DNA of 64,000 nucleotides from contig MEPB01000006.1 of the NCBI GenBank assembly GCA_001769385.1, forward strand, positions 24,182 to 88,181, written 5' to 3'. Below are positions 26,160 through 64,000 of the stretch, one piece after another. The stretch's first letter is position 1. Every line of letters starts with the position of its first letter. The notes beneath the pieces are model-generated. The model made no database searches and was not told where the DNA came from. It saw only the letters and a program-made list of their open reading frames with translations. The DNA comes from Bacteroidetes bacterium RIFCSPLOWO2_12_FULL_35_15 (GTDB taxonomy: Bacteria; Bacteroidota; Bacteroidia; 2-12-FULL-35-15). The position numbers and the translations under genes are program-made.

Positions 26160-27105
26160 TTGCTATTTTCTTTTTTAGATTAATACAATTGGCGTGATTT
26201 AACCATCCATTATAGGATGCTAATGATTGCCGGTTTTTGTTTTTGGATATCATCCGGAAACAGTTTTGTTTTATTCGCTTCCTTAATCGAACATGTGTGT
26301 GGTAAAATACATAACCAACAAAATCAACTCCGCGATATTCAACCGGAAATACCTGGTAGTTTTTTTTAACTGTTAATTTTAAATGTTCCTGCATGTATTT
26401 TTTTATATCAGCAAGGATGGCGTGTAAATAGGGTTTATTATCAGAAAGGATCACAATATCATCAGCATACCGGAAATAATACTTCACTGCTTTATCTTCT
26501 TTTATCCAGTGATCGAGATAGGTGAGATAGAAATTTGCAAAATATTGACTTAAATAATTTCCAATTGGTAGTCCCGGTGCGCTATCAATAATTTCATCAA
26601 GCAAAATCAATAAATCAACATCCTTTATTTTTTTTCGAAGCATGTATTTTAAAATATCATGATTCACATTCGGATAAAACTTCGTTACGTCAAGTTTTAA
26701 GCAATATTTTGTTCCCTGCTTATCAACTAATGCTTTTTTGAATGAACGTACGGCTGCATGTATTCCTTTCCCTTTTATACAGCTATATGTATCCGCAGTA
26801 AATGTTGAAACAAAAATCTTTTCCATTACATTCATAATCGCATGATGAACAATTCGATCAGGAAAGTATGGCAAACAAAATATTTCGCGTGGCTTAGGAT
26901 CTGTAATCATAAAAGTTTTATACTCGGATGTTTTATAGGTTTTGTTTTTCAGCGATTCATGAAGCTGTAGTATTTTTTCTTCACGATTCTTATCAAATAG
27001 CTGAACACCGTATTGATGTTTTTTGCCTTTTCTGGCATTTGCATCAGCAGCATATAAATTTTCAATGCTGATGATCTTATCGTATATGTTTCCTGTTCTT
27101 TTCAT
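26146..27105 (-). CDS. Diversity-generating-retroelement-type reverse transcriptase. The likely true start is Met at 27105; the ORF track extends it to 27309 across the TR-like repeat.
   Basis: N-terminal MKRTGNIYDKIISIENLYAADANARKGK, the catalytic FRYADDIVIL, and the DGR-diagnostic LPIGNYLSQYF (I/LGxxxSQ in place of the group II QG motif). About 320 aa and no maturase or endonuclease domain. Confidence 0.75.
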   Translation of the reverse strand: MKRTGNIYDKIISIENLYAADANARKGKKHQYGVQLFDKNREEKILQLHESLKNKTYKTSEYKTFMITDPKPREIFCLPYFPDRIVHHAIMNVMEKIFVSTFTADTYSCIKGKGIHAAVRSFKKALVDKQGTKYCLKLDVTKFYPNVNHDILKYMLRKKIKDVDLLILLDEIIDSAPGLPIGNYLSQYFANFYLTYLDHWIKEDKAVKYYFRYADDIVILSDNKPYLHAILADIKKYMQEHLKLTVKKNYQVFPVEYRGVDFVGYVFYHTHVRLRKRIKQNCFRMISKNKNRQSLASYNGWLNHANCINLKKKIANEKV

Positions 27106-27215
27106 TCCTTTGCTTTCACGGTCGTTTTCGTTTTCACTACCAACGCCCAATCTTTTAAACTTTATTTTTTGCCCTGTTGGCAAGGTTTGCATTGTTATTA
27201 AATTATTCCCAGCAT

Positions 27216-27284
27216 AGGTGGGAGCCGCAATCCGTACCCGTGTGCCAACCATCGTAATTCGAGTACGAGAAGCCGAAGCCCGAC
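27216..27284 (-). repeat. Copy A of a 69-bp repeat, the DGR template-repeat (TR) candidate. It lies in a non-coding context 5' of the RT.
   Basis: aggtgggagccgcaatccgtacccgtgtgccaaccatcgtaattcgagtacgagaagccgaagcccga. Its flanks are unique and its 3' (sense) end differs from copies B and C. Confidence 0.55.
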
Positions 27285-27321
27285 ACATCAAACAGCTCAT
27301 CCAATGCACAACCCAATTTCA

Positions 27322-31200: not shown

Positions 31201-31307
31201 CAATCCCCAACTCCTTTATTTGACAGGGTAACATAATCACCAATCACATCCAGGATAGCTCCTTTGGTTTCAATTTCTATTTTACAATTTTCGGTTATAT
31301 AGGTCAT
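28257..31307 (-). CDS. DNA primase-helicase (zinc-finger primase N-terminus plus P-loop helicase C-terminus).
   Basis: CPFCNSKKKF...KCWSC zinc motif, and Walker A GDSNGRSGKS in the C-terminal half; 1016 aa. Confidence 0.7.
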   Translation of the reverse strand: MTYITENCKIEIETKGAILDVIGDYVTLSNKGVGDCPFCNSKKKFNVSKQKGIWKCWSCDTAGVGYVGFVTKVKNLDWLQTMKFLADRLNINLEYEQAELPLIQPKQPAKKEKKAEKQSSFRDQQLAASGLNDADQRDEKKGNNDETTIEIDRYQKGTLNERWEIDPSGDDMILHYMDLNNNPMLYNRKGTSKDFPLIRIRYQHPELWPDKNGRPTKYKSPYNSGSRIWINKTIRTKYKNRIKIKCLATQEGEKKADKSTKHGLDSVGIMGIHNIANSGQLAHEYQLIVKQCEVEEVVFFVDADFCDIGSSIDAPVDQRPRSFVAAIMNFRKYFHALNSSGIHLQIYFAYVRKEHKQKGVDDLLKYTLEGQEDLFLKDFEDAKLHPQGIGHYVNCHNITAYNEFKLRKEFFHLDSNVEFAKHHMDLLKERKVFLIGREKFHFNEENELELAQPISHEEQFWEEYTKKKGDGTETVTTFKYVECCMFLQNKKFGRYALQGDGEFNFIRVEDNVVRVVKPSQIKDYLSDFVKFALQKKNVQEMFFRGYRMYLDNFNNLDFITLKFHKSDKGIQFMYFNKVYWKITSEGVEEKQITELDGHVWKDKIKDFSATIKPLNIRVKQDADKKFSIEYPQGKEEAEKCMFYQYYMNTSNFHWRDTHEGIFKIKKPNTPKTELSDLKKEDLMMHFINKCCGFGFLLHDYFDANRAKAVIAMDGVQSEVGDSNGRSGKSLNGTALEKLIPTVIIPGKQKDIAEDKFILEEVNERTRVVNIDDVRVNFDFENWFSHIGGNWKINPKGKPSFRLTPEESPKILITTNHALNGEGGSFEARQFKMAFSDYYSAKYQPVDEHGCMFFSEWSDDQWNRFYNFAANCVQIYFEHGLVEAPMERLEKRRLRQQIGEIFLEWAESYYDHDNEDDAQTGKINYHLNKPFDRKIMLEDFYAAFPEQKQNKYMDTRVFKRSIKRYCLYKGYVFNPTIANNDTGDKDGGRDKRNNVEYFTVFDSKVGVLPKKSDDMPF

Positions 31308-44111: not shown

Positions 44112-46259
44112 ATGCGCTACAAACTAGGAATTGATATTGGCGGTACGTTCACAGATCTAATTTTAGTCTCTGATGAAGGAACAACCACCATCCACAAAAC
44201 ACTTTCTACCCCTCTTGATCCCTCTATTGGATTTATTAATGGTATCAGCGAACTGGCTGAAATGATAAAGTTGCCTTTCGGGAAATTTATTAATTCCATT
44301 GATACCATTGTTCATGGAACCACAGTAGCAACTAATGCTTTGCTTACTTTAAGAGGAGCAAAAACAGCACTTGTTACCACCAAAGGTTTTCGTGATGCAT
44401 TGGAAATGAGAAGAGGAATTCGTGAAGAACAATATAATAATCATTATAAAAATGTAACACCGCTTGCGCCTCGCTATTTACGATTTACTATTGATGAACG
44501 TATTGATGCCGAAGGAAAAGTGTTGAATAAATTTGATGAAAAAGAACTTCTCTCCATCATTAAAAAAATAAAAGAAGAAAAGGTAGAGTCTGTTGCCATT
44601 TGTTTTTTGAATTCATTTAAAAATGATATCCATGAACGTAAAGCAGTCAGGTTTTTAAGAAAAGCATTGCCAGGAATCTTTGTAACTGCTTCATTCGAAG
44701 TATTGCCATCCATTCGTTTTTATGAGCGTGTGAGTACAACTGTTGTTAGCGCATTTGTTGGACCGATCGTTGCAAATTATTTTGATAAACTTACACAAAA
44801 GTTAAAAGGCATTGATTTCAAAGGACAATTACTGATCATGCAATCAAACGGTGGAGTGGTAACACCGGATGTTGTGAAGAAAACACCAGCAGTTACTGTT
44901 CTTTCAGGACCTGCAGCAGCACCAACCGCAGGAGCATTTTATTCTGCTTTGTTAGGATATAAAAATTGCATCACGGTGGATATGGGTGGGACGAGCTTTG
45001 ATGCTGCTCTGGTAATTGAAAACCAAAGTGTAACCAGTACCGAAGGAAGTATTAATCGCTATCGCATTGCATTGCCATCATTGGATATTATTACAATTGG
45101 TGCCGGTGGAGGAAGTATTGGCTGGATAGATAGTGGAGGTCTTTTACAAATGGGACCTCAAAGTGCTGGCGCATTGCCTGGTCCGGCTTGTTACGATAGA
45201 GGAGGGGAACTTCCTTCCTGTACAGATGCTGATCTGGTTCTTGGATACCTGAATCCTGATTTTTTTGCGGGAGGGAAATTAAAATTAGATAAAGCAAAAG
45301 CTGTAAAAGCGATCAAAGAGGAACTTGCTGCTAAACTTGGTTTAACGGTTGAAGAAGCTGCCGCAGGAATGTATCGTATCATCAATAGCAACATGGCGCA
45401 AGGTGTTCGTCAGGTTTCAGTAGAGAGAGGTTATGATCCACGCGAATTCTTGTTTATTGTTGCCGGTGGTGCAGGATCCATACATTCTTCTGAAATATGT
45501 AAAGAATTAGAAATCTCCATGTTCCTTGTTCCGAATGTGTCTTCTATTTTTTGTGCAGCAGGGATGTTGCTGGGTGATCTGAAACATGATTATATCCGTT
45601 CGTATTTCACTTCTTTCAATAATATTAATAAAAATAAATTCCTTACACTATTTAATGAAATGAAAGAAGAGGGTATGAAAACATTGATTGAAGAAGGAAT
45701 TAAAAAGAATAAGATCGAGTTTTATCCTGTGTTGGATATGCGTTATCTGGGGCAATATCACGAAGTGCAATTACAAGCTGATTGGAAAGATGTTACCAAC
45801 TTTAAATTGGATAATATTTTTGAAACGTTCCATAAAGAACATAACCGGCAGTTTGGTTATTCCTTGAAAGAGGAAGGAACTGAAATGGAACTTATCAATG
45901 TGAGATTGAGAGTGATCGGACAAAATGAAAAACCAAAATTTTTATCGGGAAATAATAATTCTGTTTCTGCAGAATCTGCGATCAAAGAAAATCGTGATGT
46001 GTATATTCCTGAGTTGAATAAATACAAAAAAATTCCTGTTTATGATGGTGATAAAGCTATATATGGTGCACAAATAAAAGGTCCTTGCATCATTGAAAAA
46101 ATTACCACTTCAATTTTTGTTAGTGAGAATTACGATTGTATTGTAGATAATTTTGGATCGATCATCGTGTATGAAAAGGGAATGATTACAGAGATTTCTA
46201 AGAAGATTTCAACGATTAAATTGAATAAAACAGAAAAAGAATCAGCAATTAAAAATTAA
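44112..46259 (+). CDS. hyuA: Hydantoinase/oxoprolinase family protein, A subunit.
   Basis: N-terminal MRYKLGIDIGGTFTDL; 715 aa. Confidence 0.85.
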   Translation: MRYKLGIDIGGTFTDLILVSDEGTTTIHKTLSTPLDPSIGFINGISELAEMIKLPFGKFINSIDTIVHGTTVATNALLTLRGAKTALVTTKGFRDALEMRRGIREEQYNNHYKNVTPLAPRYLRFTIDERIDAEGKVLNKFDEKELLSIIKKIKEEKVESVAICFLNSFKNDIHERKAVRFLRKALPGIFVTASFEVLPSIRFYERVSTTVVSAFVGPIVANYFDKLTQKLKGIDFKGQLLIMQSNGGVVTPDVVKKTPAVTVLSGPAAAPTAGAFYSALLGYKNCITVDMGGTSFDAALVIENQSVTSTEGSINRYRIALPSLDIITIGAGGGSIGWIDSGGLLQMGPQSAGALPGPACYDRGGELPSCTDADLVLGYLNPDFFAGGKLKLDKAKAVKAIKEELAAKLGLTVEEAAAGMYRIINSNMAQGVRQVSVERGYDPREFLFIVAGGAGSIHSSEICKELEISMFLVPNVSSIFCAAGMLLGDLKHDYIRSYFTSFNNINKNKFLTLFNEMKEEGMKTLIEEGIKKNKIEFYPVLDMRYLGQYHEVQLQADWKDVTNFKLDNIFETFHKEHNRQFGYSLKEEGTEMELINVRLRVIGQNEKPKFLSGNNNSVSAESAIKENRDVYIPELNKYKKIPVYDGDKAIYGAQIKGPCIIEKITTSIFVSENYDCIVDNFGSIIVYEKGMITEISKKISTIKLNKTEKESAIKN

Positions 46260-46649
46260 TGAATAAGGAAGATAGAGATCCATTGACAGAAAAAATTATT
46301 GCTTGTGCCTTTCAAGTGCATAATGAGATTGGCCCAGGCTTTCTTGAAAAAATATATCATAAGGCCATGATTCTTTTTTTTAAAATTGATGGATTAGATG
46401 TTGAAACAGAAAAGTAATTTAATGTGATATTTTAAAATGAAAATGTTGGAAAATTTCGTTGTGATTTGGTTGTGGAAAATAAAGTAAATAGTGGAGTTCA
46501 AAGCAGTATCAGGATATCTTCCTGTTTTGTTTGAGCATCAGGTTCTTTCTTATCTAAAAGCATCAGGAAAAAGTACAGGCTTAATTATAAATTTTGGAAA
46601 TAAAAGTTGTGAAATAAGAAGATTAATATCAAACCAAAAATCGATGTAA
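46259..46649 (+). pseudogene. Frameshifted GxxExxY-family gene remnant.
   Basis: Frame 1 gives MNKEDRDPLTEKIIACAFQVHNEIGPGFLEKIYHKAMI...ETEK*. Other frames downstream encode GKFRCDLVVENKV... and ...SYLKASGKSTGLIINFGNKSCEIRRLISNQ. It is collinear with the intact paralogue at 49026 but is broken by stops and frameshifts. Confidence 0.55.
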
Positions 46650-46679: not shown

Positions 46680-48350
46680 ATGAAAGTAGATAAAATATTA
46701 ATTTCCATTTTCCAGCGTTCCTTCAAATCCATTACAGATGAGATGAGTATTTCGCTGACTAAAACTACACGATCTCCAATTCTTTGTGAAGCGAAGGATT
46801 TTGTAACGGGTCTGTATGATGCAAAAGGACAGATGTTAGAGCAAACAGAGAATCTTCCGATCCTGTCTTTTTCTTTGGGGCCTGTTTGTAAACATCTTTT
46901 AGAAGTATATGGAAAAGAAATTTATCCCGGTGATGTGATTATTCACAATGATGTATTCACCATGGGAAATCAGAATAATGATGTGGCCATTTTCAAACCA
47001 ATATTTTTGGGAGAAACATTAATTGGTTGGTCTGCTGCAAAAGGGCATCAGGCCGATATTGGGGGGGCAGTTCAAGGTGGTTATAATCCAAATGCAACTG
47101 AAGTTTGGCAGGAAGCAATTCGTATTCCGGCAACCAAATTGTACGACAGAGGCAAACTTCGTAAAGATGTTTGGAATCTGATCTTTGCAAACATTCGTTT
47201 GAATATTGTGGAACAGGATATCAAAGCACAGATCGGTGCTTGTACGCTTGGAGAAAGGCGTTTTCAGGCTTTTGTGGAGAAATACGGATTAGAATGTTTT
47301 GAACTGCACAAGCAAGAGTTGTTCAATGCAACTGAAAAAATGATGCGTCAGGAAATAAAAGAAATTCCAAATGGAGTTTATTTTGGCGAAAGTATGGTGT
47401 ATTACGATGGAAAACATCCCGGAAGTAAATTCCCTATTAAGGCAAAAATAACGGTGAAGAATGAGGACATTGAATTTGATTTTTCAAAATCATCACCTCA
47501 AACAACAGGCTTTGTAAATGGAATTTATACATCAACCTGTTCTGCAATAACACTTACTTTCCTTCAAATGGTGAATCCAAATATTCCGCACAACGAAGGA
47601 ATGATCAAGCCTTTAAAATATATTGTACCGGAAGGTACAATTTTGAATGCCCGATATCCGGCCGCAACAACTTTTGGAAATCATTTATGTCCGCAAGTGG
47701 CTGATAGTATTTTTAAAGCATTGTCAAAAGCGGTTCCTACACGTATCACAGCGGGTTGGAATCATTTGCTTTGTTCATTGTTCACAGGAAATCATCCGCG
47801 AACAAATCGCAAATACGTGGACATCTGTTTCCTGGGAATGAAAGGTGGATCAGGTGCAATGTTAGGGGATGACGGGTATGATCACATTGGAATGATAGAT
47901 GCATCGGGTGGTGTGCTTGATCAGGATTATGAAATGTATGAGCAGCAAACTCCGCATTTAATAATGAAACATGAATATCTCTGCGATTCGGCAGGAGCAG
48001 GCAAATGGCGAGGTGGATTGGGAACAGAAACTATAATTAAAGTGGGAGCTAACAATACGAAAATGGTAGTGTTTGGTGATGGTGATGTGGTTCCTGCTTA
48101 TGGATTAAAAGGTGGTAAAGAAAGTATCTTGAATATTCTTGAATTGCGTTACCCGAATGGAAAAAAGAAAAGACCATACAGCAAAGATATTGTGGACGAT
48201 ATTCCTTCCGGAACTATTTATTATCAAGTTGCCGGTGGTGGCGGAGGTTACGGAAATCCAAAAGAAAGAGGAAAAGAGCAAGTGAAGATGGATGTGAAAA
48301 ATGGAATTGTTTCTAAGAAAGTTGCTGAGAAAGTTTATGGAGTAAAATGA
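46680..48350 (+). CDS. hyuB: Hydantoinase B/oxoprolinase family protein.
   Basis: 556 aa, paired with hyuA, with conserved Gly-rich segments (DGYDHIGMIDASGG...). Confidence 0.8.
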   Translation: MKVDKILISIFQRSFKSITDEMSISLTKTTRSPILCEAKDFVTGLYDAKGQMLEQTENLPILSFSLGPVCKHLLEVYGKEIYPGDVIIHNDVFTMGNQNNDVAIFKPIFLGETLIGWSAAKGHQADIGGAVQGGYNPNATEVWQEAIRIPATKLYDRGKLRKDVWNLIFANIRLNIVEQDIKAQIGACTLGERRFQAFVEKYGLECFELHKQELFNATEKMMRQEIKEIPNGVYFGESMVYYDGKHPGSKFPIKAKITVKNEDIEFDFSKSSPQTTGFVNGIYTSTCSAITLTFLQMVNPNIPHNEGMIKPLKYIVPEGTILNARYPAATTFGNHLCPQVADSIFKALSKAVPTRITAGWNHLLCSLFTGNHPRTNRKYVDICFLGMKGGSGAMLGDDGYDHIGMIDASGGVLDQDYEMYEQQTPHLIMKHEYLCDSAGAGKWRGGLGTETIIKVGANNTKMVVFGDGDVVPAYGLKGGKESILNILELRYPNGKKKRPYSKDIVDDIPSGTIYYQVAGGGGGYGNPKERGKEQVKMDVKNGIVSKKVAEKVYGVK

Positions 48351-48351
48351 A

Positions 48352-48453
48352 ATCTACGAAATACGAATGGGTACGAATATACGAAAACGATAAAATGATG
48401 ATCTACGAAATACGCCCTTCGACAAACTCAGGGTGACTACGAATATACGAATG
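48352..48453. repeat. TACGAAT heptamer repeat array (intergenic).
   Basis: ctacgaaatacgaatgggtacgaatatacgaaaacg...atctacgaaatacg...gactacgaatatacgaatg. Confidence 0.7.
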
Positions 48454-48603
48454 AAAAAAAATAATTTAAATATTGAATGATTTGCGTTAGGGATAGCAGC
48501 GGAAATCCTTTTGAGAGGAACGAGCAAAAGATTGAAGCGAATAGCCCGACCCGCAGGGTAACGCCCAAAATAGAATAATAAGATTATTTAAAAAATTATA
48601 AAT

Positions 48604-49014
48604 ATGCAGCATACCACAATTTTACCGGATGGTTGGCCAACACCAAAAGGATATTCCAATGGAATACTTGCAGCAAAAGGCAGAGTACTTTTTTTAGCTG
48701 GTCAGGTAGGTTGGACCCCTGAAGAAAAATTCGCAAGCGATAAACTGATCCCACAGTTTGAACAAGCATTAAAAAATATTGTTGCTATTGTAAAACAAGC
48801 AGGTGGAAAACCGGAAGATATTTGCAAGATGACTTGTTTCTGCAAAGACAGAGCACAATATTTAGAAAGCAGAAGAGAGTTAGGAGCTATCTGGAAAAAT
48901 ATCATGGGAAAACATTATCCCTGCATGAGTATGATTTTCGTGGTGGATTTGTTGGATCATCCTGCATTAATCGAGATTGAAGCTACAGCAGTTATTCCTA
49001 CTAATAACGAATAA
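48604..49014 (+). CDS. RidA/YjgF/TdcF-family protein.
   Basis: 136 aa, YjgF-like. Its stop codon lies within a TACGAAT-type repeat (aacgaaTAAacgaattacgaATG). Confidence 0.7.
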   Translation: MQHTTILPDGWPTPKGYSNGILAAKGRVLFLAGQVGWTPEEKFASDKLIPQFEQALKNIVAIVKQAGGKPEDICKMTCFCKDRAQYLESRRELGAIWKNIMGKHYPCMSMIFVVDLLDHPALIEIEATAVIPTNNE

Positions 49015-49025
49015 ACGAATTACGA

Positions 49026-49439
49026 ATGAGAGTTGTGTTAAAAAAAGAAAATTTGTTATATCCTGAACTATCTTTTCAGGTTGTAGGAGTTTTATTTGAA
49101 GTAAGTAATACATTAGGATATGGCTATCTGGAAAAATATTATCAAAAAGCAATTGCAGCATTACTTAAAAAATCAAATATAAATTTTAAGGAACAGGTTA
49201 AAGTTGAAGTAATAATTGGAGATGAAATTATAGCAGAAGGTCGTGCGGATTTCATAATTGATGAAAAAATTATTTTGGAAATTAAAAAAGGTGATTCATT
49301 CCGGAAAGATAATATTGATCAATTGCACAGTTATTTAAAAATGACCGGAATGGAGCTTGGCATCCTTGCGAATTTTACATCAAAAGGATTACTTTATAAA
49401 AGAATCGTAAATATTCGTAATTCACAAATTCGTAATTAG
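49026..49439 (+). CDS. GxxExxY-family protein.
   Basis: GYGYLEKYY motif; its C-terminal residues and stop are encoded by the ATTCGTAA repeat. Confidence 0.7.
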   Translation: MRVVLKKENLLYPELSFQVVGVLFEVSNTLGYGYLEKYYQKAIAALLKKSNINFKEQVKVEVIIGDEIIAEGRADFIIDEKIILEIKKGDSFRKDNIDQLHSYLKMTGMELGILANFTSKGLLYKRIVNIRNSQIRN

Positions 49440-49546
49440 TAGAACGATGGACTTAAATATTCGTAATTAGTAAATTCGTAATTAGTAGAACGATGGACTT
49501 AAATATTCGTAATTAGTAAATTCGTAATTAGTAGAACGATGGACTT
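49409..49546 (+). repeat. 3 x 46-bp tandem repeat built from ATTCGTAATTAGTA units. Each copy ends in ...agaacgATGGACTT, and the third copy supplies the start codon of the acyl-CoA dehydrogenase.
   Basis: Copies at 49409-49454, 49455-49500 and 49501-49546. Copies 2 and 3 are identical and copy 1 differs at 3 positions. Copies 1 and 2 encode only the mini-ORF MDLNIRN*. Confidence 0.8.
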
Positions 49547-50669
49547 TGAATTAAACGAAATACAAAAACAAATTCAACAAACTTTTCGAGACTTTACCGA
49601 TAGGAGAGTAAAACCTGTTGCTGGTAAATTAGATGAAGAAAAAAAGTTTCCTCACCAGCTTTTTAAAGAAGCCGGGGATCTGGGATTTTTTGGGATGCGT
49701 TATCCTGAAAGTGCAGGAGGAAGCGGATTGGATATTGTTTCCTACTCATTAGCTGTAATTGAAATGGCAAGAGGATCCTTGTCGCTGGCTGCTGTTTGTA
49801 CCATGCAATCATTAATGGGAACCTACTTTCTTTATCGTTTTGGTAATAAAGAGATCATTGAAAATTATTTTGATGAAGCCCTGAAAGGTAATAAAATTGG
49901 TGGTATTTGCATGACGGAGCCTAATGCAGGTTCCGATTTAATGGCAATTAAAACACTTGCAAAAGTTACTGATGATGGCTTTATTCTTAGCGGACAAAAG
50001 ACCTGGATCACATCAGCTCCGGTTGCTGATTTTTTTACGGTGCTTGCACGAACCGATAATCATGAAAAACTCTCCATATTTTTTGTGCCTGCTGATTTGA
50101 AAGGAGTGATTGTTGGAAAAAGTATTGAGAAAATGGGTGTGCGAGCTTCCGTAACCAGTGAAGTAGCTTTTGTTGATGTTCAGCTCCCGAAAAAATATTT
50201 GCTTGGCGAAATTGGTGGAGGAACAAAATGCCTTATTGAAATTCTTGCCGAGATCCGGATCATGACCGCTGCTCTTGCTATCGGAGTTGCAACAGCAGCT
50301 TATGAAGATGCTTTGAAATATGCCAATGAGCGTTCACAATTTGGAAAACCAATTGGGAAATTTCAGGCTGTACAAATGAAATTTGCGGACATGGCAGTGA
50401 AACTGGAAACATCCAAACATTATGTGATGTATGCAGCAAGCTTAAGTGATAAAAATCTCCCGCGTCAGAAAGAAGCAATGATAGCAAAGCTCTATGCTTC
50501 GGAATGTGCAGTAAATATATGTGATGAAGCATCCCGTGTACTTGCTTCTTATGGTTACGCAGTTGAATATAATGTAGAAAGGTATTTACGGGATTCTCGT
50601 TTTACGTTGATTGGTGGGGGAACCTCAGAAATATTAAAAATAAATATTGCAAAAGAATTAGGACTATGA
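49539..50669 (+). CDS. Acyl-CoA dehydrogenase.
   Basis: ACAD fold motifs: CMTEPNAGSDL, a C-terminal RYLRDSRFTLIGGGTSEI, and catalytic Glu context. Confidence 0.85.
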   Translation: MDFELNEIQKQIQQTFRDFTDRRVKPVAGKLDEEKKFPHQLFKEAGDLGFFGMRYPESAGGSGLDIVSYSLAVIEMARGSLSLAAVCTMQSLMGTYFLYRFGNKEIIENYFDEALKGNKIGGICMTEPNAGSDLMAIKTLAKVTDDGFILSGQKTWITSAPVADFFTVLARTDNHEKLSIFFVPADLKGVIVGKSIEKMGVRASVTSEVAFVDVQLPKKYLLGEIGGGTKCLIEILAEIRIMTAALAIGVATAAYEDALKYANERSQFGKPIGKFQAVQMKFADMAVKLETSKHYVMYAASLSDKNLPRQKEAMIAKLYASECAVNICDEASRVLASYGYAVEYNVERYLRDSRFTLIGGGTSEILKINIAKELGL

Positions 50670-50675
50670 GAAGTT

Positions 50676-50826
50676 CTACGAATTACGAATTAAACGAATT
50701 ACGAATGAGATTTTCCAATTTATCAGATGTTTACGTTAGTATTTCATCTTTATTCGTAATTCGGCCATTCGTAATTAGTAGTGTAATATATTCACTTTTA
50801 TTTGCAGTTTGTTCATTCGTAATAAA
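50676..50826. repeat. TACGAAT/ATTCGTA inverted heptamer array (intergenic).
   Basis: ctacgaattacgaattaaacgaattacgaatgag ... ttattcgtaattcggccattcgtaattagt ... cattcgtaata. Confidence 0.7.
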
Positions 50827-50837
50827 TAGGTAAAAAT

Positions 50838-52238
50838 ATGAGTAATATAAAATCATACGGAATCGCATTACCTCATTTCAGAATCGAGGATACTATTCTT
50901 CACCCCAAAGGAAAGAAAGGCATAACAAAGTCAGTTTGTTTTTCTGATGAAGATTTGATCACACTTGCTTTTCAGGCAGCATCAAACTGTTTGGATGTCA
51001 GTTCGAGCGGAGTCGAGAACTCAAATCTCAAATCTAATATTGATGCAATTCTCTTTGCCTCATCAACTCCGGTTTTTAAAAATCGGTATCATGCTTCTTT
51101 TCTTGCTGATCAATTAGGTTTACTTCATGGCATTTTAGCGCTTGATCTTATAAATTCAGCCCGAAGTGGAACGGATGCCCTGTTATTGGCAAATACATTA
51201 ATTGATTTCGGTAAATACAAAAATATTTTGGTGCTTGCTTCTGATGTTCATTTTCCTTCAATCGGAAAAGAGCTTTCAACTCCCTTCGGTCATGCTGCCT
51301 GTGCAATTTTGATAGGTAATGAAAAAGGTATTGCAGAATTTACTTCAGCCAAATCATACAGTTCTTCACTGGCTGAAGAATTTTCTTACAAAGGAAATAC
51401 TATTCAGTATGATCCTCGATTTAGCCGTGATGCAGGATTTAAAGCAAACCTGACTTCTGCACTTAAAAGTTTTGCGTCTAACCCAAAATCGATTGATGCT
51501 GTAATTTTAAATTCTCTTTATGCTCGAATGGCAGGAGGGATTTTTGCGAAAGCTGGTTTTGAAGAAACACAATTTGCAATGGACACCCTTTCTTCCAAAC
51601 TAGGAAATACAGGTGCTGTTCATGCGTTACTGCTGTTAGTGAATGAAATTGAAAACGAAAAGAAAACCATCTTACTTGCAGATTACACAAACGGAACAAA
51701 CTTTTTTGAAATAAAAAATCAAGGTTCCAATTCTGAAAAAGTACTGCAAGAGCAATTGAAAAATTTCGAATTAATTAATTCTTATCAGGATTATTTATTG
51801 TTGCGCAAAACAGGAAATTTCAATTCAGCAAAATACGAAACCAAAGAAATGTTTTCTTCTGAAATGATGCAGGAACGTGAGAAAGACACCTTGCAATATC
51901 TGAAAGGTTTGAAATGCGATAAGTGCGGAACCATTTATTATCTGAAATCTACTCGATGTAAAAATTGTAAAGAAGAAAATTTTTCAGATGTTCAATTATC
52001 AAAAACTGGAATTGTTTATACCTTAACAAGCGAACATTATTTTCCAAGTTCATTCCCTCCAATTCATATGTTGGTAATTGATCTGGATGGTGGGGGAAGG
52101 GTTACAGTTCAACAAACTGATACCATGTATCCTGAAAAAAATAAAATAAAGATCGGTTCGAAAGTGAAATTGGTTTTACGAAAAATGATTGAGAATGATA
52201 TGAAACCAAATTATTTCTGGAAGGCTGTAAATCTATGA
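50838..52238 (+). CDS. HMG-CoA-synthase-like (thiolase-fold) protein fused to a C-terminal DUF35-type Zn-ribbon/OB-fold domain.
   Basis: N-terminal SYGIALPHFRIEDT and a C-terminal zinc ribbon CDKCGTIYYLKSTRCKNCKEE. Confidence 0.5.
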   Translation: MSNIKSYGIALPHFRIEDTILHPKGKKGITKSVCFSDEDLITLAFQAASNCLDVSSSGVENSNLKSNIDAILFASSTPVFKNRYHASFLADQLGLLHGILALDLINSARSGTDALLLANTLIDFGKYKNILVLASDVHFPSIGKELSTPFGHAACAILIGNEKGIAEFTSAKSYSSSLAEEFSYKGNTIQYDPRFSRDAGFKANLTSALKSFASNPKSIDAVILNSLYARMAGGIFAKAGFEETQFAMDTLSSKLGNTGAVHALLLLVNEIENEKKTILLADYTNGTNFFEIKNQGSNSEKVLQEQLKNFELINSYQDYLLLRKTGNFNSAKYETKEMFSSEMMQEREKDTLQYLKGLKCDKCGTIYYLKSTRCKNCKEENFSDVQLSKTGIVYTLTSEHYFPSSFPPIHMLVIDLDGGGRVTVQQTDTMYPEKNKIKIGSKVKLVLRKMIENDMKPNYFWKAVNL

Positions 52239-52240
52239 AA

Positions 52241-52297
52241 TACGAATTGATACGAATAGAATCTACGAATACGAATTAGTACGAATATACGAATAGA
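52241..52297. repeat. TACGAAT heptamer array (intergenic).
   Basis: aaatacgaattgatacgaatagaatctacgaatacgaattagtacgaatatacgaatag. Confidence 0.7.
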
Positions 52298-52333
52298 TGA
52301 AATTAAGAATGTAAAATTCACAATTAAGAATTA

Positions 52334-53506
52334 ATGAAAGATATAGCAATAATAGGCATTGGAGTAACAAAGTTCGGTGAATTGTTTCATCAGAGTTATG
52401 ACGACTTGGTGCGTGATGCCGCGATGCAAGCTGTGAACGATGCTCAGATCAATATGGATGAAATTGGGGCTGCATGGCTTTCAACTGCATTCCCTGAAAT
52501 AGGTGTTTTTAAAGGTAGAAGCGGAATGGATCTGTCTGAGCCACTTTCTTTGTATAATATTCCTGTAACAAGGGTTTCAAATTTTTGTGCCTCAGGCGCA
52601 GATGCTATACGCAATGCCGTGAATGCATTACGTGCAGGAGAATGTGATGTAGCGATGGCATTGGGAGTGGAGAAGCTTCGTGATCGCCAACCGCAGGATA
52701 GTATTGTAAAAATGATGGTTGAATACGGACATCCGTTTTTACAAAAAGGATTTACAGCTGCCGGTACATTTGCTGTATATGCAAACCGGATGATGAAAGA
52801 ATTTGGTGTAACCCGTGAAGATATTTCAAACGTTTCGGTGAAAAATCATTTTCATGGTTCATTAAATGAAAAAGCATTCTATCGTAAACCATGCACACTT
52901 GAAGAAGTAATGAGATCACAAATGGTTGCTGATCCTCTTACCGTTTTGGATAGCTGCCCGACCACTGATGGTGCAGCTTGTGTGATAATTGTGCGTGCGG
53001 AAGATGTGAATAAAAATAAACACAAGCCTGTTTTTATTAAAGGTGTTGGACTTTCTGTTTCAACAGGATGGGATCTTCCTTTCTTCGATCCCAATCATGA
53101 TTTTCTTTCTTTTGAAGCCACACGCAATGCAGCAAAAATGGCTTATAAACAAGCAGGTATTACAAATCCAATTGAAGAACTGGATTTGGTGGAAGTACAT
53201 GATTGTTTTTCAATAGTCGAATTATTAACTTATGAAGATCTCGGATTATGCAAACAAGGGGAAGCAAAAGATCTGATACGAGGAAAAGAAACACAACTCG
53301 GAGGGAAAATTCCTGTGAATGTGAGTGGTGGACTTTTATCTTGTGGACATCCGGTTGGTGCAACAGGAATAAGAATGGTGGTTGAAGTTTCCAATCACTT
53401 GCGCAATTCTGCAGGTGAACGACAAGTGAAAAAAGCAAAAAGAGGATTAACACATAATATTGGAGGTCCAGGTGCTATTGCATCGGTGATCATTCTGGAA
53501 AATTAA
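52334..53506 (+). CDS. Thiolase, SCP-x/non-specific lipid-transfer type.
   Basis: Active-site region NFCASGADAIRNAV and C-terminal GGLLSCGHPVGATG. Confidence 0.75.
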   Translation: MKDIAIIGIGVTKFGELFHQSYDDLVRDAAMQAVNDAQINMDEIGAAWLSTAFPEIGVFKGRSGMDLSEPLSLYNIPVTRVSNFCASGADAIRNAVNALRAGECDVAMALGVEKLRDRQPQDSIVKMMVEYGHPFLQKGFTAAGTFAVYANRMMKEFGVTREDISNVSVKNHFHGSLNEKAFYRKPCTLEEVMRSQMVADPLTVLDSCPTTDGAACVIIVRAEDVNKNKHKPVFIKGVGLSVSTGWDLPFFDPNHDFLSFEATRNAAKMAYKQAGITNPIEELDLVEVHDCFSIVELLTYEDLGLCKQGEAKDLIRGKETQLGGKIPVNVSGGLLSCGHPVGATGIRMVVEVSNHLRNSAGERQVKKAKRGLTHNIGGPGAIASVIILEN

Positions 53507-53509
53507 ATT

Positions 53510-53630
53510 TTACGAAAATACGAATGAATACTAATCTCCGAATAAAGTAAAATGCAAAATCCGAAATTAAAAATTGGATTAATTCGATTCATAAATTCGT
53601 ACAATTGGTATTTCGTAAAGCAAACTAAAT
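53510..53630. repeat. TACGAAA/TACGAAT and ATTCGTA/TTTCGTA heptamer array (intergenic).
   Basis: ttacgaaaatacgaatgaatac...aattcgattcataaattcgtacaattggtatttcgtaaag. Confidence 0.65.
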
Positions 53631-61898: not shown

Positions 61899-64000
61899 AT
61901 GAGTAAAAAATTAAATGTAATTGGAACACCAATACCGAAGATAGATGCAGGTATTCGTATCACGGGAAAAGCGGTTTATGGTCAGGATGTAAAACTACCG
62001 GGAATGCTTCATGGTGCTATTCTTCGTGCTGAGTATCCATGCGCGGAATTTACAATTGATGTTTCTGCTGCAAGAAAATTGCCCGGAGTTATTGCTGTTA
62101 TTACAGCGGATGATATTGATTGCAATAACATTAGCTATAAAAAGGATCATCCGATATTAAAAAAAGGAGAAGTAAATTGTATTCGTGATGAAATAGCAGC
62201 TGTTGCCGCTGAAAGTAAAGAGATCGCTGAAAGAGCCATTAAACTTATCAAAGTAAAGTACAAAGAAAAGAAAGGGATTTATGATCCTTTCGATGCATTA
62301 AAGCCTAATGCTCCTCTTGTAAATAAATATTTGAAGGATAGTAAATTCGCGAAAAACATTTCTGATATTTTCTTCTACGAACATGGAAATCTGGAAGAAC
62401 AAAAAAAGAAAAGCGCTGTTATTATCAGCAAACGTTTCGTATTACCTCGCGTAACACATTGTTGTATGGCAACAAGCAACATCACCGCTGATTATTCCTC
62501 TGTCACCAAACGCTTAACATTATATAGTTCAACACAAGTTCCGTTTTTATATCAACGCGACATGGCACATGCTTTGAAAATGAATGCCTCCGATATTCGT
62601 GTTATTCAAGTGGTGATCGGTGGCGGATTTGGAAGTAAATTAGATATGTATCCTTTTGAACCAATTGCTGCTATTCTTTCTATAAAAACAGGAAAGCCTG
62701 TTCAGATAATTTTTGACCGTGAAGAGGAATTTATTGCTTCACCTACGAGGCAGAATATGGTGATTGACTTAATAGCAGGGGCTGATAAAAATGGGAAATT
62801 CACTTTTCGTGATGTTACTATTGTAAAAGATAATGGTGCATTCACTTCCTGGGGCGCAACCACTCCTTTTGTAATGATGCAGACTTTTTCATCACTCTAT
62901 CAAATGCCTGCTTGTCGGTTTGAATCAAAAGCCGTTTATACAAATAATATTTCAGCAGGTTCTTTCCGTGGTTATGGGAATCCACAAGCTGCTTTCGCTA
63001 TCGAAAGTTGTATTGATCTGATGGCCGATAAATTAGGAATGGATAAAGCAGAAATTCGTTTGCTTAATGCAAATTATGCAGGTGAAATAACAGGACAAGG
63101 AATGCACTACGACACTTGCGGACATATAGAAGCCTTGAAAACCGTTATTGAAAAATCGGATTTACGAAATACAAATAAAGAAACTTTACGAAATACTAAT
63201 AAATACGAATCTACGAATAAAGAAAAAGAAACAGTCAACACAGATTCGTATATTCGAAAAAATCCGTATTTCGTAGATAATGTAGATAGATATAAGCGGG
63301 GAGTGGGAATTGCTTCGATGATGCATGTTGGGGGTGGTGCTAAAATTTATCGATCAGATGGTTGCGGAACTACCTTAAAATTGGATGATTACGGACATCT
63401 GACTTTAATTACAGGCTCGAGCGAGATCGGTCAGGGCTCCGAAACTGTTTTGGCAATGATGGCTTCAGAGGAACTTACAATTCCAATGAATAAAATAAAA
63501 GTTATTAATACGGATACGGATGTAAAGCCTTGGGATGTTGGGGTGCATGCATCCCGTACCAGTTTTGTAGCAGGGAATTCGGTGTTAGGTGCTGTTAAAA
63601 AATTAAAAGAAAAATTAAATCAAAAAGCTGCTGTACTTTTAAAATGTACGATTGAGAATTTGATCTATGAAAATGAAGAAATAAAAAATAGTGACGGAAG
63701 TAATTCTGTTCGAATAGAAAAAGTGGTTCGTGAAATGCATTTTGGAGGACAAAATGAGCTGTGTACGGTAAACCATTTTTATGAACCAACAAGTGATTTT
63801 CAGGATAAACAGTTCAAAGGAAATGTTTCAGGTACTTATGCATTTGCTGCGCAGTCAGCTGAAGTGGAAGTGGATACCTATACCGGAAATATTAAGGTAT
63901 TAAATATTCATGTTGCACAAGATGTGGGTAAAGTATTGAATCCACTAAACATCATGGGACAAATTGAAGGAGGTGTTTTGACTGGAGTGGGTTATGGAAT
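61899..64000 (+). CDS. Molybdopterin-binding large subunit of a xanthine dehydrogenase/aldehyde oxidase-family enzyme (3' end beyond the window). It contains an in-frame TACGAAT-repeat insertion.
   Basis: The product begins MSKKLNVIGTPIPKIDAGIRITGKAVYGQDVKLPGMLHGAILRAEYP. Typical MoCo-enzyme segments: RGYGNPQA, GSSEIGQG and VHASRTSFVAG. There is no stop through 64000. Confidence 0.85.
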   Translation, partial: MSKKLNVIGTPIPKIDAGIRITGKAVYGQDVKLPGMLHGAILRAEYPCAEFTIDVSAARKLPGVIAVITADDIDCNNISYKKDHPILKKGEVNCIRDEIAAVAAESKEIAERAIKLIKVKYKEKKGIYDPFDALKPNAPLVNKYLKDSKFAKNISDIFFYEHGNLEEQKKKSAVIISKRFVLPRVTHCCMATSNITADYSSVTKRLTLYSSTQVPFLYQRDMAHALKMNASDIRVIQVVIGGGFGSKLDMYPFEPIAAILSIKTGKPVQIIFDREEEFIASPTRQNMVIDLIAGADKNGKFTFRDVTIVKDNGAFTSWGATTPFVMMQTFSSLYQMPACRFESKAVYTNNISAGSFRGYGNPQAAFAIESCIDLMADKLGMDKAEIRLLNANYAGEITGQGMHYDTCGHIEALKTVIEKSDLRNTNKETLRNTNKYESTNKEKETVNTDSYIRKNPYFVDNVDRYKRGVGIASMMHVGGGAKIYRSDGCGTTLKLDDYGHLTLITGSSEIGQGSETVLAMMASEELTIPMNKIKVINTDTDVKPWDVGVHASRTSFVAGNSVLGAVKKLKEKLNQKAAVLLKCTIENLIYENEEIKNSDGSNSVRIEKVVREMHFGGQNELCTVNHFYEPTSDFQDKQFKGNVSGTYAFAAQSAEVEVDTYTGNIKVLNIHVAQDVGKVLNPLNIMGQIEGGVLTGVGYG
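63162..63275 (+). repeat. Intragenic TACGAAT/ATTCGTA heptamer array, in frame.
   Basis: gatttacgaaatacaaataaagaaactttacgaaatactaataaatacgaatctacgaataaag...cagattcgtatattcgaaaaaatccgtatttcgtag. It translates in the gene frame as ...SDLRNTNKETLRNTNKYESTNKEKETVNTDSYIRKNPYFVDNV... Confidence 0.7.

What the first reader, a model, noticed from the sequence alone, without database searches (positions are those of the whole stretch)
49409..49546. 46-bp unit triplicated in tandem duplicates the stop of one gene and the RBS plus start codon of the next
The unit aaatattcgtaattagtaaattcgtaattagtagaacgATGGACTT occurs three times head-to-tail. Copy 1 supplies the last codons and TAG stop of the GxxExxY gene (…IRNSQIRN*). 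Copies 1 and 2 each carry an ATG that opens only a 7-codon mini-ORF (MDLNIRN*). Copy 3 carries the genuine acyl-CoA dehydrogenase start, ATGGACTTTGAA. This is a recent slipped or recombinational expansion. It could act as a translational-coupling or attenuation device via upstream mini-ORFs, or as a phase-variable spacer.
Basis: seen in the sequence. Interest (0 to 1): 0.55.

Follow-up and report, generated by a model that had tools for sequence, protein, structure and literature searches.

The report
Duplicated end of a nuclease-gene cassette
The 46-base triple repeat is real and varies between two and three copies in near-identical genomes; it is a tandem duplication of the right-hand inverted-repeat arm of a small nuclease-gene cassette plus the start of the next gene, and such arms turn out to be widespread hot spots for this kind of duplication.

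Summary
The repeat is confirmed: 46 bp x 3.0 at 49408-49546. Copies 2 and 3 are identical; copy 1 differs by CAC/AGT. The unit is not arbitrary. It holds a 30-nt arm, ATTCGTAATT-N5-ATTCGTAATTAGTAG, which is the right terminal inverted repeat of a cassette carrying the GxxExxY (PD-(D/E)XK) gene. The left arm lies at 48998-49027. The rest of the unit is a 4-nt spacer and the first 8 nt of the acyl-CoA dehydrogenase gene. Four related species keep the same RidA-GxxExxY-ACAD order with one arm, so one copy is ancestral. A sister lineage (~93% nt) already has two copies. Public assemblies almost identical to the window have two copies (3) or three (2, plus the window). The third copy is therefore recent and apparently polymorphic. 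The same arms occur as gene-less hairpins in Bacteroidota, Planctomycetota and many metagenomes. They often sit a few bases before a start codon, and tandem duplications are about 23-fold enriched next to them. The best reading is a slippage or recombination by-product at a hairpin-prone element. It creates two decoy 7-codon ORFs and an unstructured leader. A regulatory role is possible but untested. Attenuation and frame-switch phase variation are not supported. No description of the cassette family was found in the literature searched.

The parts
48998..49027 (+). Left inverted-repeat arm, CTACTAATAACGAATAAACGAATTACGAAT. It supplies the last codons and the stop of the RidA-like gene (…PTNNE*) and abuts and overlaps the ATG of the GxxExxY gene.
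   Evidence: Inverted repeats I1-I4, 83-87% complementary to the right arms. One mismatch to the arm pattern on the minus strand. Sequence.
49026..49439 (+). GxxExxY / PDDEXK_3 nuclease gene (137 aa). It fills the space between the arms, and its last 9 codons (NIRNSQIRN) are the translated right arm.
   Evidence: TIGR04256 100.1 bits against a cutoff of 35, and PF13366 98.5 bits. D75, E85 and K87 are invariant in 48 homologues. AlphaFold pLDDT 91 with a low-confidence tail at 130-137. Nearest folds are Cas4 SSO0001 and lambda exonuclease.
49408..49453 (+). Repeat unit copy 1. It holds right arm 49413-49442 (variant with CAC at 49423-49425), spacer AACG at 49443-49446, and the first bases of decoy start ATGGACTT at 49447.
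49454..49499 (+). Repeat unit copy 2. It holds arm 49459-49488 (AGT variant), spacer AACG, and the second decoy ATG at 49493.
   Evidence: This copy is also present in the 2-copy alleles and in the sister lineage.
49500..49546 (+). Repeat unit copy 3. It holds arm 49505-49534, spacer AACG, and the genuine ACAD start at 49539. It is identical to copy 2 and is the copy missing from the 2-copy assemblies.
49447..49470 (+). Decoy mini-ORF 1, MDLNIRN*.
49493..49516 (+). Decoy mini-ORF 2, MDLNIRN*.
49539..50669 (+). Acyl-CoA dehydrogenase gene. Its first 8 nt belong to the repeat unit.
   Evidence: ORF. Pfam Acyl-CoA_dh_N/M/1 on the identical product. NCBIfam hits to the ACAD family.
50673..50783 (+). 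Gene-less copy of the same element (hairpin), between the ACAD stop and the next gene. Left arm at 50673-50706, right arm at 50752-50781. It shares TAAACGAATTACGAATGAGA.TT with the left end of the gene-carrying cassette.
   Evidence: Repeats D12, I19 and I25. Zero mismatches to the arm pattern. RNA fold -35 kcal/mol, z -5.0.
48350..48452 (+). Direct (non-palindromic) array of TACGAAT-type heptamers after the hydantoinase B stop.
   Evidence: (D4, D6). Unstructured, z +0.84.
52229..52295 (+). Direct TACGAAT-type heptamer array between the 466-aa gene and the thiolase-like gene.
   Evidence: Unstructured, z +0.60.
63160..63280 (+). Degenerate palindromic TACGAAT element lying in frame inside a molybdopterin-subunit gene.
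   Evidence: The alignment to 1rm6_A shows about 33 extra residues here. Fold z -3.4.

Best explanation
The array is a tandem duplication, first to two copies and later to three, of a 46-bp segment. The segment consists of 5 nt of the GxxExxY gene, the 30-nt right terminal inverted repeat of the GxxExxY cassette, a 4-nt spacer, and the first bases of the acyl-CoA dehydrogenase gene.

What is shown:
- The ancestral state is one arm followed 3-8 nt later by the ACAD start.
- The two-copy state predates the split from a sister lineage.
- The third copy is identical to the second and is present in only some near-identical assemblies.
- The arms belong to a dispersed family of hairpin-forming elements built from TACGAAT/ATTCGTA heptamers.
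- Tandem duplications cluster next to such arms in unrelated genomes.

What is inferred:
- The duplications arise by replication slippage, template switching or unequal recombination, promoted by the hairpin-prone and internally periodic arms. The half-sites are 15 nt apart, and only 1 nt of junction homology is visible.
- The duplications are tolerated because the last copy always rebuilds an intact ACAD start, while each upstream copy opens only a 7-codon ORF.
- The likely physical consequence is 46-92 nt of AU-rich, unstructured RNA, with decoy starts, between the base of the long cassette stem and the ACAD start. Whether this helps, hinders or does nothing to ACAD translation is not known.
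For: - Repeat and its anatomy.
- Single copy at orthologous RidA-GxxExxY-ACAD loci in four other species (L019-22, L023, L025/26, L027-30).
- GxxExxY is 79-83% identical across these species, against 70-74% for ACAD, so it is an old vertically inherited resident.
- The sister lineage L151-153 has two copies with the same junction and the same CAC/AGT difference.
- Two versus three copies in contigs that otherwise differ by at most 1 SNP in 13 kb.
- Arm copy number also varies elsewhere. L027 and L028 encode the same protein, with 1 versus 3 copies of a 15-mer in the left arm.
- The same kind of event is seen at L009, where hairpin, upstream gene end and downstream ATG are duplicated as a 164-bp unit. 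It is also seen at L071 (162 bp x 3.4) and L101 (133 bp x 2).
- With one uniform detection method, 5 tandem duplications lie within 150 nt of arms (32 kb) and 4 lie in the remaining 589 kb.
- The array alone is unstructured (z +2.27). In the 616-nt fold the left arm pairs with a right arm and encloses the gene; which copy it pairs with I judged by eye (it looked like the last one) and did not map.
Against: - All comparisons use metagenome assemblies. A collapsed or expanded repeat could mimic 2 versus 3 copies, and no reads were available.
- The junction shows only 1 nt of microhomology, so simple slipped mispairing is not obviously favoured.
- CAC versus AGT is a 3-nt block change that needs a second event, such as conversion of half-site 1 to the sequence of half-site 2.
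- Both arms and the decoy ATGGACTTAAAT are perfectly conserved between the window lineage and its sister, while the two 4-nt spacers differ at 6 of 8 positions. This hints at selection or concerted evolution on the duplicated parts rather than neutral junk.
- The 23-fold enrichment rests on nine events.
Confidence: 0.68

Rival explanations
1. The duplicated arm plus decoy start is a selected translational device. One version: ribosomes leaving the GxxExxY stop are relayed through the 7-codon ORFs to the ACAD start. Another version: the extra arm keeps the ACAD start out of the long stem formed by the cassette arms and offers an unstructured AU-rich landing pad. Copy number would then tune ACAD output.
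For: - The two-copy state is retained in two lineages. Both arms and the decoy ATG are perfectly conserved, while the adjacent 4-nt spacers have changed at 6 of 8 positions and the flanks diverge 10-19%.
- The array is less structured than every shuffle.
- Arms of this family sit within 25 nt upstream of a long-ORF ATG in 24% of cases, against 6.9% for random positions.
- Heptamer arrays just upstream of start codons have been proposed as sites for S1, Csp or CsrA-type factors (PMC4679880).
- Leader ORFs close to starts have been proposed to raise translation by reinitiation (PMC4833913).
Against: - Four orthologous operons work with one arm and no decoy ORF.
- The 22-nt gap from the mini-ORF stop to the next ATG lies outside the 11-14 bp peak reported for Bacteroidetes (PMC4833913).
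- Conservation of the arms could come from gene conversion among family members.
- No expression data exist for this uncultured organism.
Confidence: 0.2
2. The third copy, or the copy-number difference as a whole, is an assembly artefact of short-read de Bruijn assemblers going round a repeat loop.
For: - Every source is a metagenome assembly.
- Copies 2 and 3 are identical, so resolving them needs reads or k-mers that span about 126 nt.
- The split follows source and pipeline. The two k141 (MEGAHIT-style) contigs and one ANAN16 scaffold give 2 copies, and the two JGI assemblies give 3.
Against: - At least two copies are certainly real. In the sister lineage the two copies have diverged spacers (TACT and TGAA), which no assembler would invent.
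- Each state was recovered in three assemblies.
- A k of 141 spans the whole region that has to be resolved.
Confidence: 0.12
3. The extra arms are footprints of element mobility. On this view they are repeated insertions of solo arms, or long target-site duplications made when the cassette or a gene-less relative moved. They would not be duplications of resident DNA.
For: - The family is mobile on evolutionary time. A 75%-identical cassette with perfect 30-nt inverted repeats and 35.6% GC sits between atpG and atpD of a 52.7%-GC Planctomycetota MAG.
- A gene-carrying and a gene-less form occupy the same MoxR/DUF58 junction in two genomes.
- Copies 2 and 3 carry a different 3-nt block from copy 1.
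Against: - Each unit also contains 16 nt that are not arm, including the ACAD start, plus 5 nt of GxxExxY coding sequence.
- There is no left arm between the right arms.
- No target-site duplication is visible at clean insertions.
- The cassette has stayed at this site since before these species diverged.
Confidence: 0.06

Closest known systems
Variable-number tandem repeats in 5' leaders (for example the AGAT repeats before uspA2 of Moraxella, summarised in PMC4679880)
   Same: Head-to-tail copies lie between an upstream gene and a start codon. Copy number differs among close relatives.
   Different: The unit is 46 nt with 2-3 copies. It carries a start codon and a stop, so each extra copy adds a 7-codon ORF. 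No effect on expression has been shown.
Intergenic heptamer direct repeats near start codons (TAACTGA arrays of Beggiatoaceae, Cyanobacteria and some Bacteroidetes, PMC4679880; cyanobacterial STRR heptamers, from my own knowledge)
   Same: Arrays of a 7-nt unit lie in intergenic regions, often a few bases before a start codon. They are shared by distant phyla with no known transfer mechanism. Array lengths vary.
   Different: The unit here is TACGAAT. The arrays usually occur as inverted pairs forming hairpins with co-varying spacers, and one subfamily encloses a nuclease gene.
REP/BIME elements with their RAYT gene (REPINs), from my own knowledge
   Same: Short palindromic repeats are dispersed in intergenic regions. 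A gene is flanked by two of them in inverted orientation. Repeats of this kind are known join points for tandem duplications.
   Different: The enclosed gene is a PD-(D/E)XK (Cas4 / lambda-exonuclease-like) protein, not an HUH Y1 transposase. The same arm sequence occurs in different phyla, whereas REPs are species-specific.
MITEs that act at the RNA level or insert in frame (Neisseria Correia elements, Rickettsia palindromic elements), from my own knowledge
   Same: They have terminal inverted repeats, gene-less dispersed copies and co-transcription within operons. Here one copy lies in frame inside a gene (63160-63280), and the arms are translated as protein tails (…NIRNSQIRN, …PTNNE).
   Different: No target-site duplication was seen. 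No transposase partner is known. No RNA-strand bias of G.U over A.C mismatches was found (6 vs 9).
23S rRNA intervening sequences carrying a small ORF between inverted repeats, from my own knowledge
   Same: A small ORF is bracketed by inverted repeats and inserted into a transcribed, essential unit. The arms can form a long stem that encloses the ORF.
   Different: The host is an mRNA operon, not rRNA. Excision by RNase III is not shown. The ORF family is different (GxxExxY rather than the four-helix-bundle protein).

Membership tests
Variable-number tandem repeat (minisatellite) | Two or more head-to-tail copies of high identity | tested here: met
   Period 46, 3.0 copies, 96% matches, score 257.
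Variable-number tandem repeat (minisatellite) | Copy number differs among otherwise near-identical genomes | tested here: met
   Two copies in L001/L002, L004 and L006. Three in L003, L005 and the window. L001 differs from the window by 1 SNP in 13 kb otherwise. Caveat: these are assemblies, not reads.
Phase-variable contingency locus (slipped-strand on/off switch) | A change in copy number shifts the reading frame or removes the start of the regulated gene | tested here: not met
   The array lies upstream of the ACAD ORF. Both alleles end in the identical spacer plus ATGGACTTTGAA start.
Phase-variable contingency locus (slipped-strand on/off switch) | A change in copy number alters promoter element spacing | not testable with these tools
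   The sigma-70-type scan shows no excess of sites (8 found, 10.8 expected). Bacteroidota promoters are not covered by the tool.
Leader-peptide transcription attenuator | An upstream ORF followed by alternative terminator and antiterminator hairpins | tested here: not met
   No terminator-like site between 49400 and 49600. The array folds worse than all 200 shuffles. The gap from stop to next ATG is 22 nt, below the roughly 40 bp argued in PMC4833913.
GxxExxY protein (TIGR04256) / PDDEXK_3 (PF13366) | Profile score above the curated cutoff | tested here: met
   100.1 bits against 35, and 98.5 bits against 22.
GxxExxY protein (TIGR04256) / PDDEXK_3 (PF13366) | PD-(D/E)XK catalytic residues and fold | tested here: met
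   D75, E85 and K87 are invariant in 48 homologues. Model pLDDT 91. Best PDB folds are Cas4 SSO0001 (E 1e-6) and lambda exonuclease. No nuclease activity has been tested.
MITE / TIR transposable element | Terminal inverted repeats | tested here: met
   30-nt arms, 83-87% complementary in the window, and perfect in L024 and L098.
MITE / TIR transposable element | Several dispersed copies, including gene-less derivatives, at unrelated sites | tested here: met
   12 loci in 7 MAGs. More than 120 metagenome loci. Only 2 of 92 loci carry the gene next to an arm. Gene-carrying and gene-less forms occur at the same junction.
MITE / TIR transposable element | Target-site duplication flanking the element | tested here: inconclusive
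   No direct repeat is visible outside the arms at L024, L098 or L011. No empty-site comparison precise to the base was made.
MITE / TIR transposable element | An autonomous copy encodes a transposase | tested here: not met
   The only gene between the arms matches PDDEXK_3/GxxExxY and no transposase family.
REP/RAYT (REPIN) system | The gene flanked by inverted palindromic repeats is an HUH Y1 (RAYT) transposase | tested here: not met
   The gene is a PD-(D/E)XK protein.
TAACTGA-type heptamer arrays (PMC4679880) | Tandem heptamer units placed within a few nucleotides of a start codon | tested here: met
   TACGAAT x 4 at 50677-50706. 24% of arms have a long-ORF ATG within 25 nt, against 6.9% for random positions.
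TAACTGA-type heptamer arrays (PMC4679880) | The unit sequence is TAACTGA, in direct orientation only | tested here: not met
   The unit is TACGAAT. 41 of 108 arms have an inverted partner upstream.

The most novel reading that the evidence does not exclude
The TACGAAT-armed GxxExxY cassette may be an undescribed kind of mobile or self-propagating element. It consists of a minimal Cas4 / lambda-exonuclease-like nuclease gene bracketed by 30-nt inverted repeats whose variable spacers co-vary. It gives rise to gene-less hairpin derivatives in Bacteroidota, Planctomycetota and probably Patescibacteria. It settles precisely between a stop codon and the next start codon of operons, and occasionally in frame inside genes. 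On this reading, processing at the outer boundary of its arms causes both the local tandem duplications (such as the 46-bp array) and the fast-changing 4-nt spacer next to the arm. The processing enzyme could be the nuclease itself or a host enzyme acting on the hairpin.
Probability: 0.3. Interest if true: 0.72.

Novelty: new variant of a known kind. Interest (0 to 1): 0.5.

Why it matters
GxxExxY/PDDEXK_3 proteins form a very large family with no known function. Full-text searches returned three papers holding 'GxxExxY' and two holding 'PDDEXK_3'/PF13366; the two I read or judged from their listing only mention or classify the family. This locus gives the family a concrete DNA or RNA partner: conserved arms that travel with the gene, outnumber it as gene-less hairpins, and mark sites of local duplication. 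That makes the question of what these nucleases act on directly testable. For the repeat itself, the result shows how a palindromic element can remodel a translation start region, creating decoy starts and a variable leader inside a metabolic operon. It also supplies a natural 1-, 2- and 3-copy series for testing start-site selection in Bacteroidota, which largely lack Shine-Dalgarno-guided initiation (my own knowledge).

Tried and rejected
- An exact 29-mer of the unit scanned against metagenome contigs gave 0 hits, although the JGI contigs that carry it exist in another index. It was therefore useless for counting alleles.
- A look-up of P0003, from the Rifle MAG that is probably the window's source, found nothing on record.
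- A look-up with the RidA protein gave no new contigs.
- Rfam at gathering thresholds found only Flavo-1 at 48479-48555 and nothing for the arms.
- The sigma-70 promoter and intrinsic terminator scans showed no excess.
- I tested for RNA-level selection by comparing G.U with A.C mismatches in 10 hairpins of known transcription direction. The counts were 6 vs 9, so there was no signal, and the sample was too small to exclude it.
- I tested whether the 3' end of the GxxExxY gene is generally constrained at synonymous sites. It is not in the wider orthologues. The 181-nt identical tract shared with the sister lineage therefore remains unexplained.
- A PDB sequence search with the GxxExxY protein gave no hit.
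- Literature searches for the arm sequences gave no paper.
- The scan of viral contigs found only 3 loci, so phages are not an obvious vehicle.
- Isolated single ATTCGTA heptamers elsewhere in the window (10.7, 11.7, 16.0, 41.2 and 42.9 kb) lie in ordinary sequence and were dismissed as chance.
- The second GxxExxY gene (46259-46649) has no such arms.
Full report
**1. The observation**

Tandem Repeats Finder gives one strong array at 49408-49546: period 46, 3.0 copies, 96% matches, score 257. In register the three units are TAAATATTCGTAATT[CAC/AGT]AAATTCGTAATTAGTAGAACGATGGACT. CAC occurs only in copy 1 (49423-49425), and copies 2 and 3 are identical.

- The 137-aa ORF 49026-49439 ends …RIVNIRNSQIRN inside copy 1.
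- The ATGs at 49447 and 49493 each open MDLNIRN*.
- The ATG at 49539 opens a 376-aa acyl-CoA dehydrogenase, MDFELNEIQK…. Orthologues share this N-terminus.

Also, no Shine-Dalgarno-like motif is visible, so 'RBS' means only 'upstream context'.

**2. What the unit is made of**

The core of each unit is a 30-nt sequence, ATTCGTAATT-N5-ATTCGTAATTAGTAG. This pattern has 5 matches in the window and 0 expected by chance:

- the three units;
- one inverted copy at 48998-49027, immediately before and overlapping the ATG of the GxxExxY gene;
- one copy at 50752-50781.

The GxxExxY gene is therefore bracketed by 30-nt inverted repeats that are 83-87% complementary (I1-I4). Its start codon abuts the left arm and its stop lies in the right arm. 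The left arm also supplies the last codons and the stop of the upstream RidA-like gene (…PTNNE*).

The intergenic region after the dehydrogenase (50673-50783) is a gene-less miniature of the same element. It shares 22 of 23 nt with the left end of the cassette (D12) and folds into a strong hairpin (-35 kcal/mol, z -5.0).

The heptamer ATTCGTA/TACGAAT occurs 38 times in the window against 8.8 expected. It clusters in the intergenic regions of this operon (48350-48452, 52229-52295, 53509-53620) and at 63160-63280.

**3. The gene between the arms**

- It scores 100.1 bits on TIGR04256 (GxxExxY; cutoff 35) and 98.5 bits on PF13366 (PDDEXK_3).
- D75, E85 and K87 are invariant in 48 homologues.
- An AlphaFold model has pLDDT 91. 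Only the first residues and the arm-encoded tail (130-137) have low confidence.
- The nearest solved folds are Cas4 SSO0001, lambda exonuclease and MGME1.
- The cassette is AT-richer than its neighbours: 27.9% GC against about 38%.

**4. History of the array**

The same gene order, hydantoinase B - RidA - GxxExxY - ACAD, occurs in four other species (L019-22, L023, L025/26, L027-30). Each has a single right arm. The ACAD ATG follows 3-8 nt after the stop, or overlaps it.

GxxExxY is 79-83% identical across these species, against 70-74% for ACAD and 77-80% for RidA. It is therefore an old, vertically inherited and conserved resident, and one copy of the arm is the ancestral state.

A sister lineage (L151-153; protein 98% identical; about 93% nt identity over the region) has two units. 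They show the same junction (ATGGACTT|AAAT) and the same CAC/AGT difference. The first duplication therefore predates that split.

Contigs that encode exactly the window's proteins carry either two or three units:

- two units: L001/L002 from ERZ27254759, L004 from ERZ4903125, L006 from ERZ28563625;
- three units: L003 from JGI 3300002223, L005 from JGI 3300025311, and the window.

Outside the array, L001 differs from the window by one SNP in 13 kb. The third copy is thus recent and apparently polymorphic in the population. The caveat is that these are assemblies, not reads.

The organism is probably the Rifle groundwater MAG 'Bacteroidetes bacterium RIFCSPLOWO2_12_FULL_35_15'. Its protein P0003 is 99% identical, and the window is 36% GC.

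**5. The element family**

The exact arm pattern occurs in 12 loci of 7 MAGs from Bacteroidota and Planctomycetota.

- Most copies are short gene-less hairpins of the form (CA)CTACGAATTACGAAT…ATTCGTAATT.GTAG.
- 41 of 108 arms have an inverted partner upstream, with loops of 1-207 nt, or 389 nt when the gene is present. Only 2 have a partner in the opposite arrangement.
- The 5-nt spacers inside the arms vary between copies but co-vary between the two arms of a copy. In 7 of 22 hairpins they are fully complementary, using 6 different sequences. Mean complementarity is 3.05 of 5, against 1.25 expected.
- Only 2 of 92 loci carry a GxxExxY gene next to an arm.
- Conversely, homologues of the window's protein from about 57% identity upwards commonly end in …NIRNS(xIRNS), which is the translated right arm. 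Several begin MSELRM or MGELRM, the translated left arm.

Evidence that the family is mobile on evolutionary time:

- A 75%-identical copy with perfect 30-nt inverted repeats sits between atpG and atpD of a Planctomycetota MAG. The cassette is 35.6% GC in a 52.7%-GC locus.
- At one orthologous MoxR/DUF58 junction, one genome (L098) has the gene-carrying cassette with perfect arms, and another (L009) has a gene-less hairpin.

Arms lie within 25 nt upstream of a long-ORF ATG in 24% of cases, against 6.9% for random positions. The arrangement 'arm, a few bases, ATG' seen before ACAD is therefore typical of the family.

**6. Duplications at arms are recurrent**

- L009 carries a 164-bp tandem duplication. 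It comprises the last ~35 nt of the upstream gene, the hairpin, and the first ~55 nt (with the ATG) of the downstream gene. This creates a short decoy ORF, exactly as in the window.
- L071 has 3.4 copies of a 162-bp unit containing an arm. L101 has 2 x 133 bp, L097 has 2 x 195 bp, and L060 has 2.2 x 59 bp next to an arm.
- L027 and L028 encode the same protein, yet differ by two extra copies of a 15-mer in the left arm.
- With one uniform self-BLAST criterion (unit 40-300 nt), 5 tandem duplications lie within 150 nt of arms (32 kb) and 4 lie in the other 589 kb. That is about 23-fold enrichment, though based on only nine events.

**7. Mechanism**

Shown:

- a duplication of resident DNA, because each unit contains 16 nt that are not arm, plus 5 nt of GxxExxY coding sequence;
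- stepwise growth from 1 to 2 to 3 copies;
- variability between near-identical assemblies;
- association of such duplications with arms.

Inferred:

- Hairpin-prone arms with internally periodic half-sites (15 nt apart) promote slippage, template switching or unequal exchange.
- The junction has only 1 nt of homology.
- The CAC-to-AGT block makes half-site 1 identical to half-site 2 (ATTCGTAATTAGTA). This suggests a templated conversion.

Consequences:

- In a 616-nt RNA fold the left arm pairs with a right arm and encloses the gene. By eye the partner looked like the last copy. I did not map the brackets to confirm which copy it is.
- The array on its own is less structured than all 200 shuffles (z +2.27).
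- In the ancestral state the ACAD ATG sits 3-8 nt from the base of that potential stem. Extra units could free the start region and add decoy starts.

Whether this matters is unknown. Attenuation is not supported: there is no terminator, no structure, and a 22-nt gap that is too short (PMC4833913). Frame-switch phase variation is excluded by the geometry.

**8. An unexplained detail**

Between the window lineage and its sister, a 181-nt tract has 0-2 differences. The tract covers the 3' end of GxxExxY, arm 1, ATGGACTTAAAT and arm 2. Yet the two 4-nt spacers inside it differ at 2/4 and 4/4 positions (AACG/AACG versus TACT/TGAA), and the flanks diverge 10-19%.

Wider orthologues show no general synonymous constraint at the gene's 3' end. 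Two readings remain open:

- the arms and decoy start are held constant by selection or gene conversion while the spacers drift;
- the tract was recently exchanged and the spacers at the outer arm boundary mutate fast.

This keeps a functional reading alive, at about 0.2. It also keeps alive the more novel reading that something cuts or repairs at the arm boundary.

**9. Comparison with known systems, and verdict**

The array is a minisatellite/VNTR by both defining tests. It is not an attenuator or a frame-switch contingency locus.

The element family resembles four known kinds but is not a member of any of them on the features tested:

- REP/RAYT systems: repeats flank a gene in inverted orientation and gene-less copies are dispersed. 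But the gene here is a PD-(D/E)XK protein, not a RAYT.
- MITEs such as Correia or Rickettsia palindromic elements: they share inverted repeats, co-transcription and in-frame insertion. But no target duplication and no transposase were found.
- The TAACTGA heptamer arrays near start codons shared by Beggiatoaceae, Cyanobacteria and Bacteroidetes (PMC4679880): the unit here is different, and the arrays are usually inverted pairs.
- ORF-bearing 23S rRNA intervening sequences.

No paper containing the arm sequences was found, and the few papers found for 'GxxExxY', 'PDDEXK_3' or PF13366 offered nothing on its function or genomic partners.

I rate the repeat itself as modestly interesting. The cassette family it exposes is a new variant of a known kind, and I score it 0.5 overall.

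Noticed in passing
window 63160-63280: A degenerate TACGAAT palindromic element lies in frame inside a molybdopterin-binding subunit gene (ORF from about 61860 to the window end). It encodes DLRNTNKETLRNTNKYESTNKEKETVNTDSYIRKNPYFV. The closest solved homologue (1rm6_A) has about 33 fewer residues at this point, and the RNA folds with z -3.4. It looks like an in-frame insertion of the Rickettsia-palindromic-element kind.
   Followed up: partly
window 48479-48555 (+): A Flavo-1 RNA (RF01705, 51.8 bits against gathering score 42) lies between hydantoinase B and the RidA-like gene. A direct TACGAAT array at 48350-48452 sits just upstream of it.
   Followed up: no
window 46259-46649 (+): A second GxxExxY gene is split into two 52-aa ORFs by a frameshift or stop. 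The identical contig L001 shows the same split. It has no TACGAAT arms and is absent from the hydantoinase A/B junction of the orthologous loci L019 and L023. It is probably a decaying, lineage-specific insertion of another subfamily.
   Followed up: partly
window about 500-34000 (minus strand): A prophage-like block. It includes terminase large subunit (12695-14200), head maturation protease (19133-20452), a minor tail/peptidase protein (2391-4961), a primase-like protein (28257-31307), and a reverse transcriptase (26146-27309, phrog_1423, E 1e-123) that may belong to a diversity-generating retroelement.
   Followed up: no
window 50838-53506, compared with L019 and L023: In the window, and in L025 and L027, a DUF35/thiolase-like gene pair lies between ACAD and the B12-binding mutase subunit. 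In L019 and L023, ACAD abuts the mutase genes directly. In the window each junction of the extra pair carries TACGAAT-type repeats (50673-50838, 52229-52295, 53509-53620).
   Followed up: no
L001 5480-6090 versus L152 160-778 (window 49330-49546 region): A 181-nt tract is nearly identical between two lineages, yet the two 4-nt spacers between arm and ATG differ at 6 of 8 positions, and the flanks diverge 10-19%.
   Followed up: partly
L014 about 3740-3860 and L015 about 2900-3330 (as oriented): Some right arms have no left partner. Instead they are preceded by long arrays of other short units (CACTTAGA-like, GGCACTAA/GGCACATA-like). This suggests that several kinds of short tandem repeat combine in these intergenic elements.
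   Followed up: no
L003 1488-1512 (window 49787-49811): The JGI contig has N at four third-codon positions of ACAD. This is consistent with strain heterogeneity in that sample.
   Followed up: no
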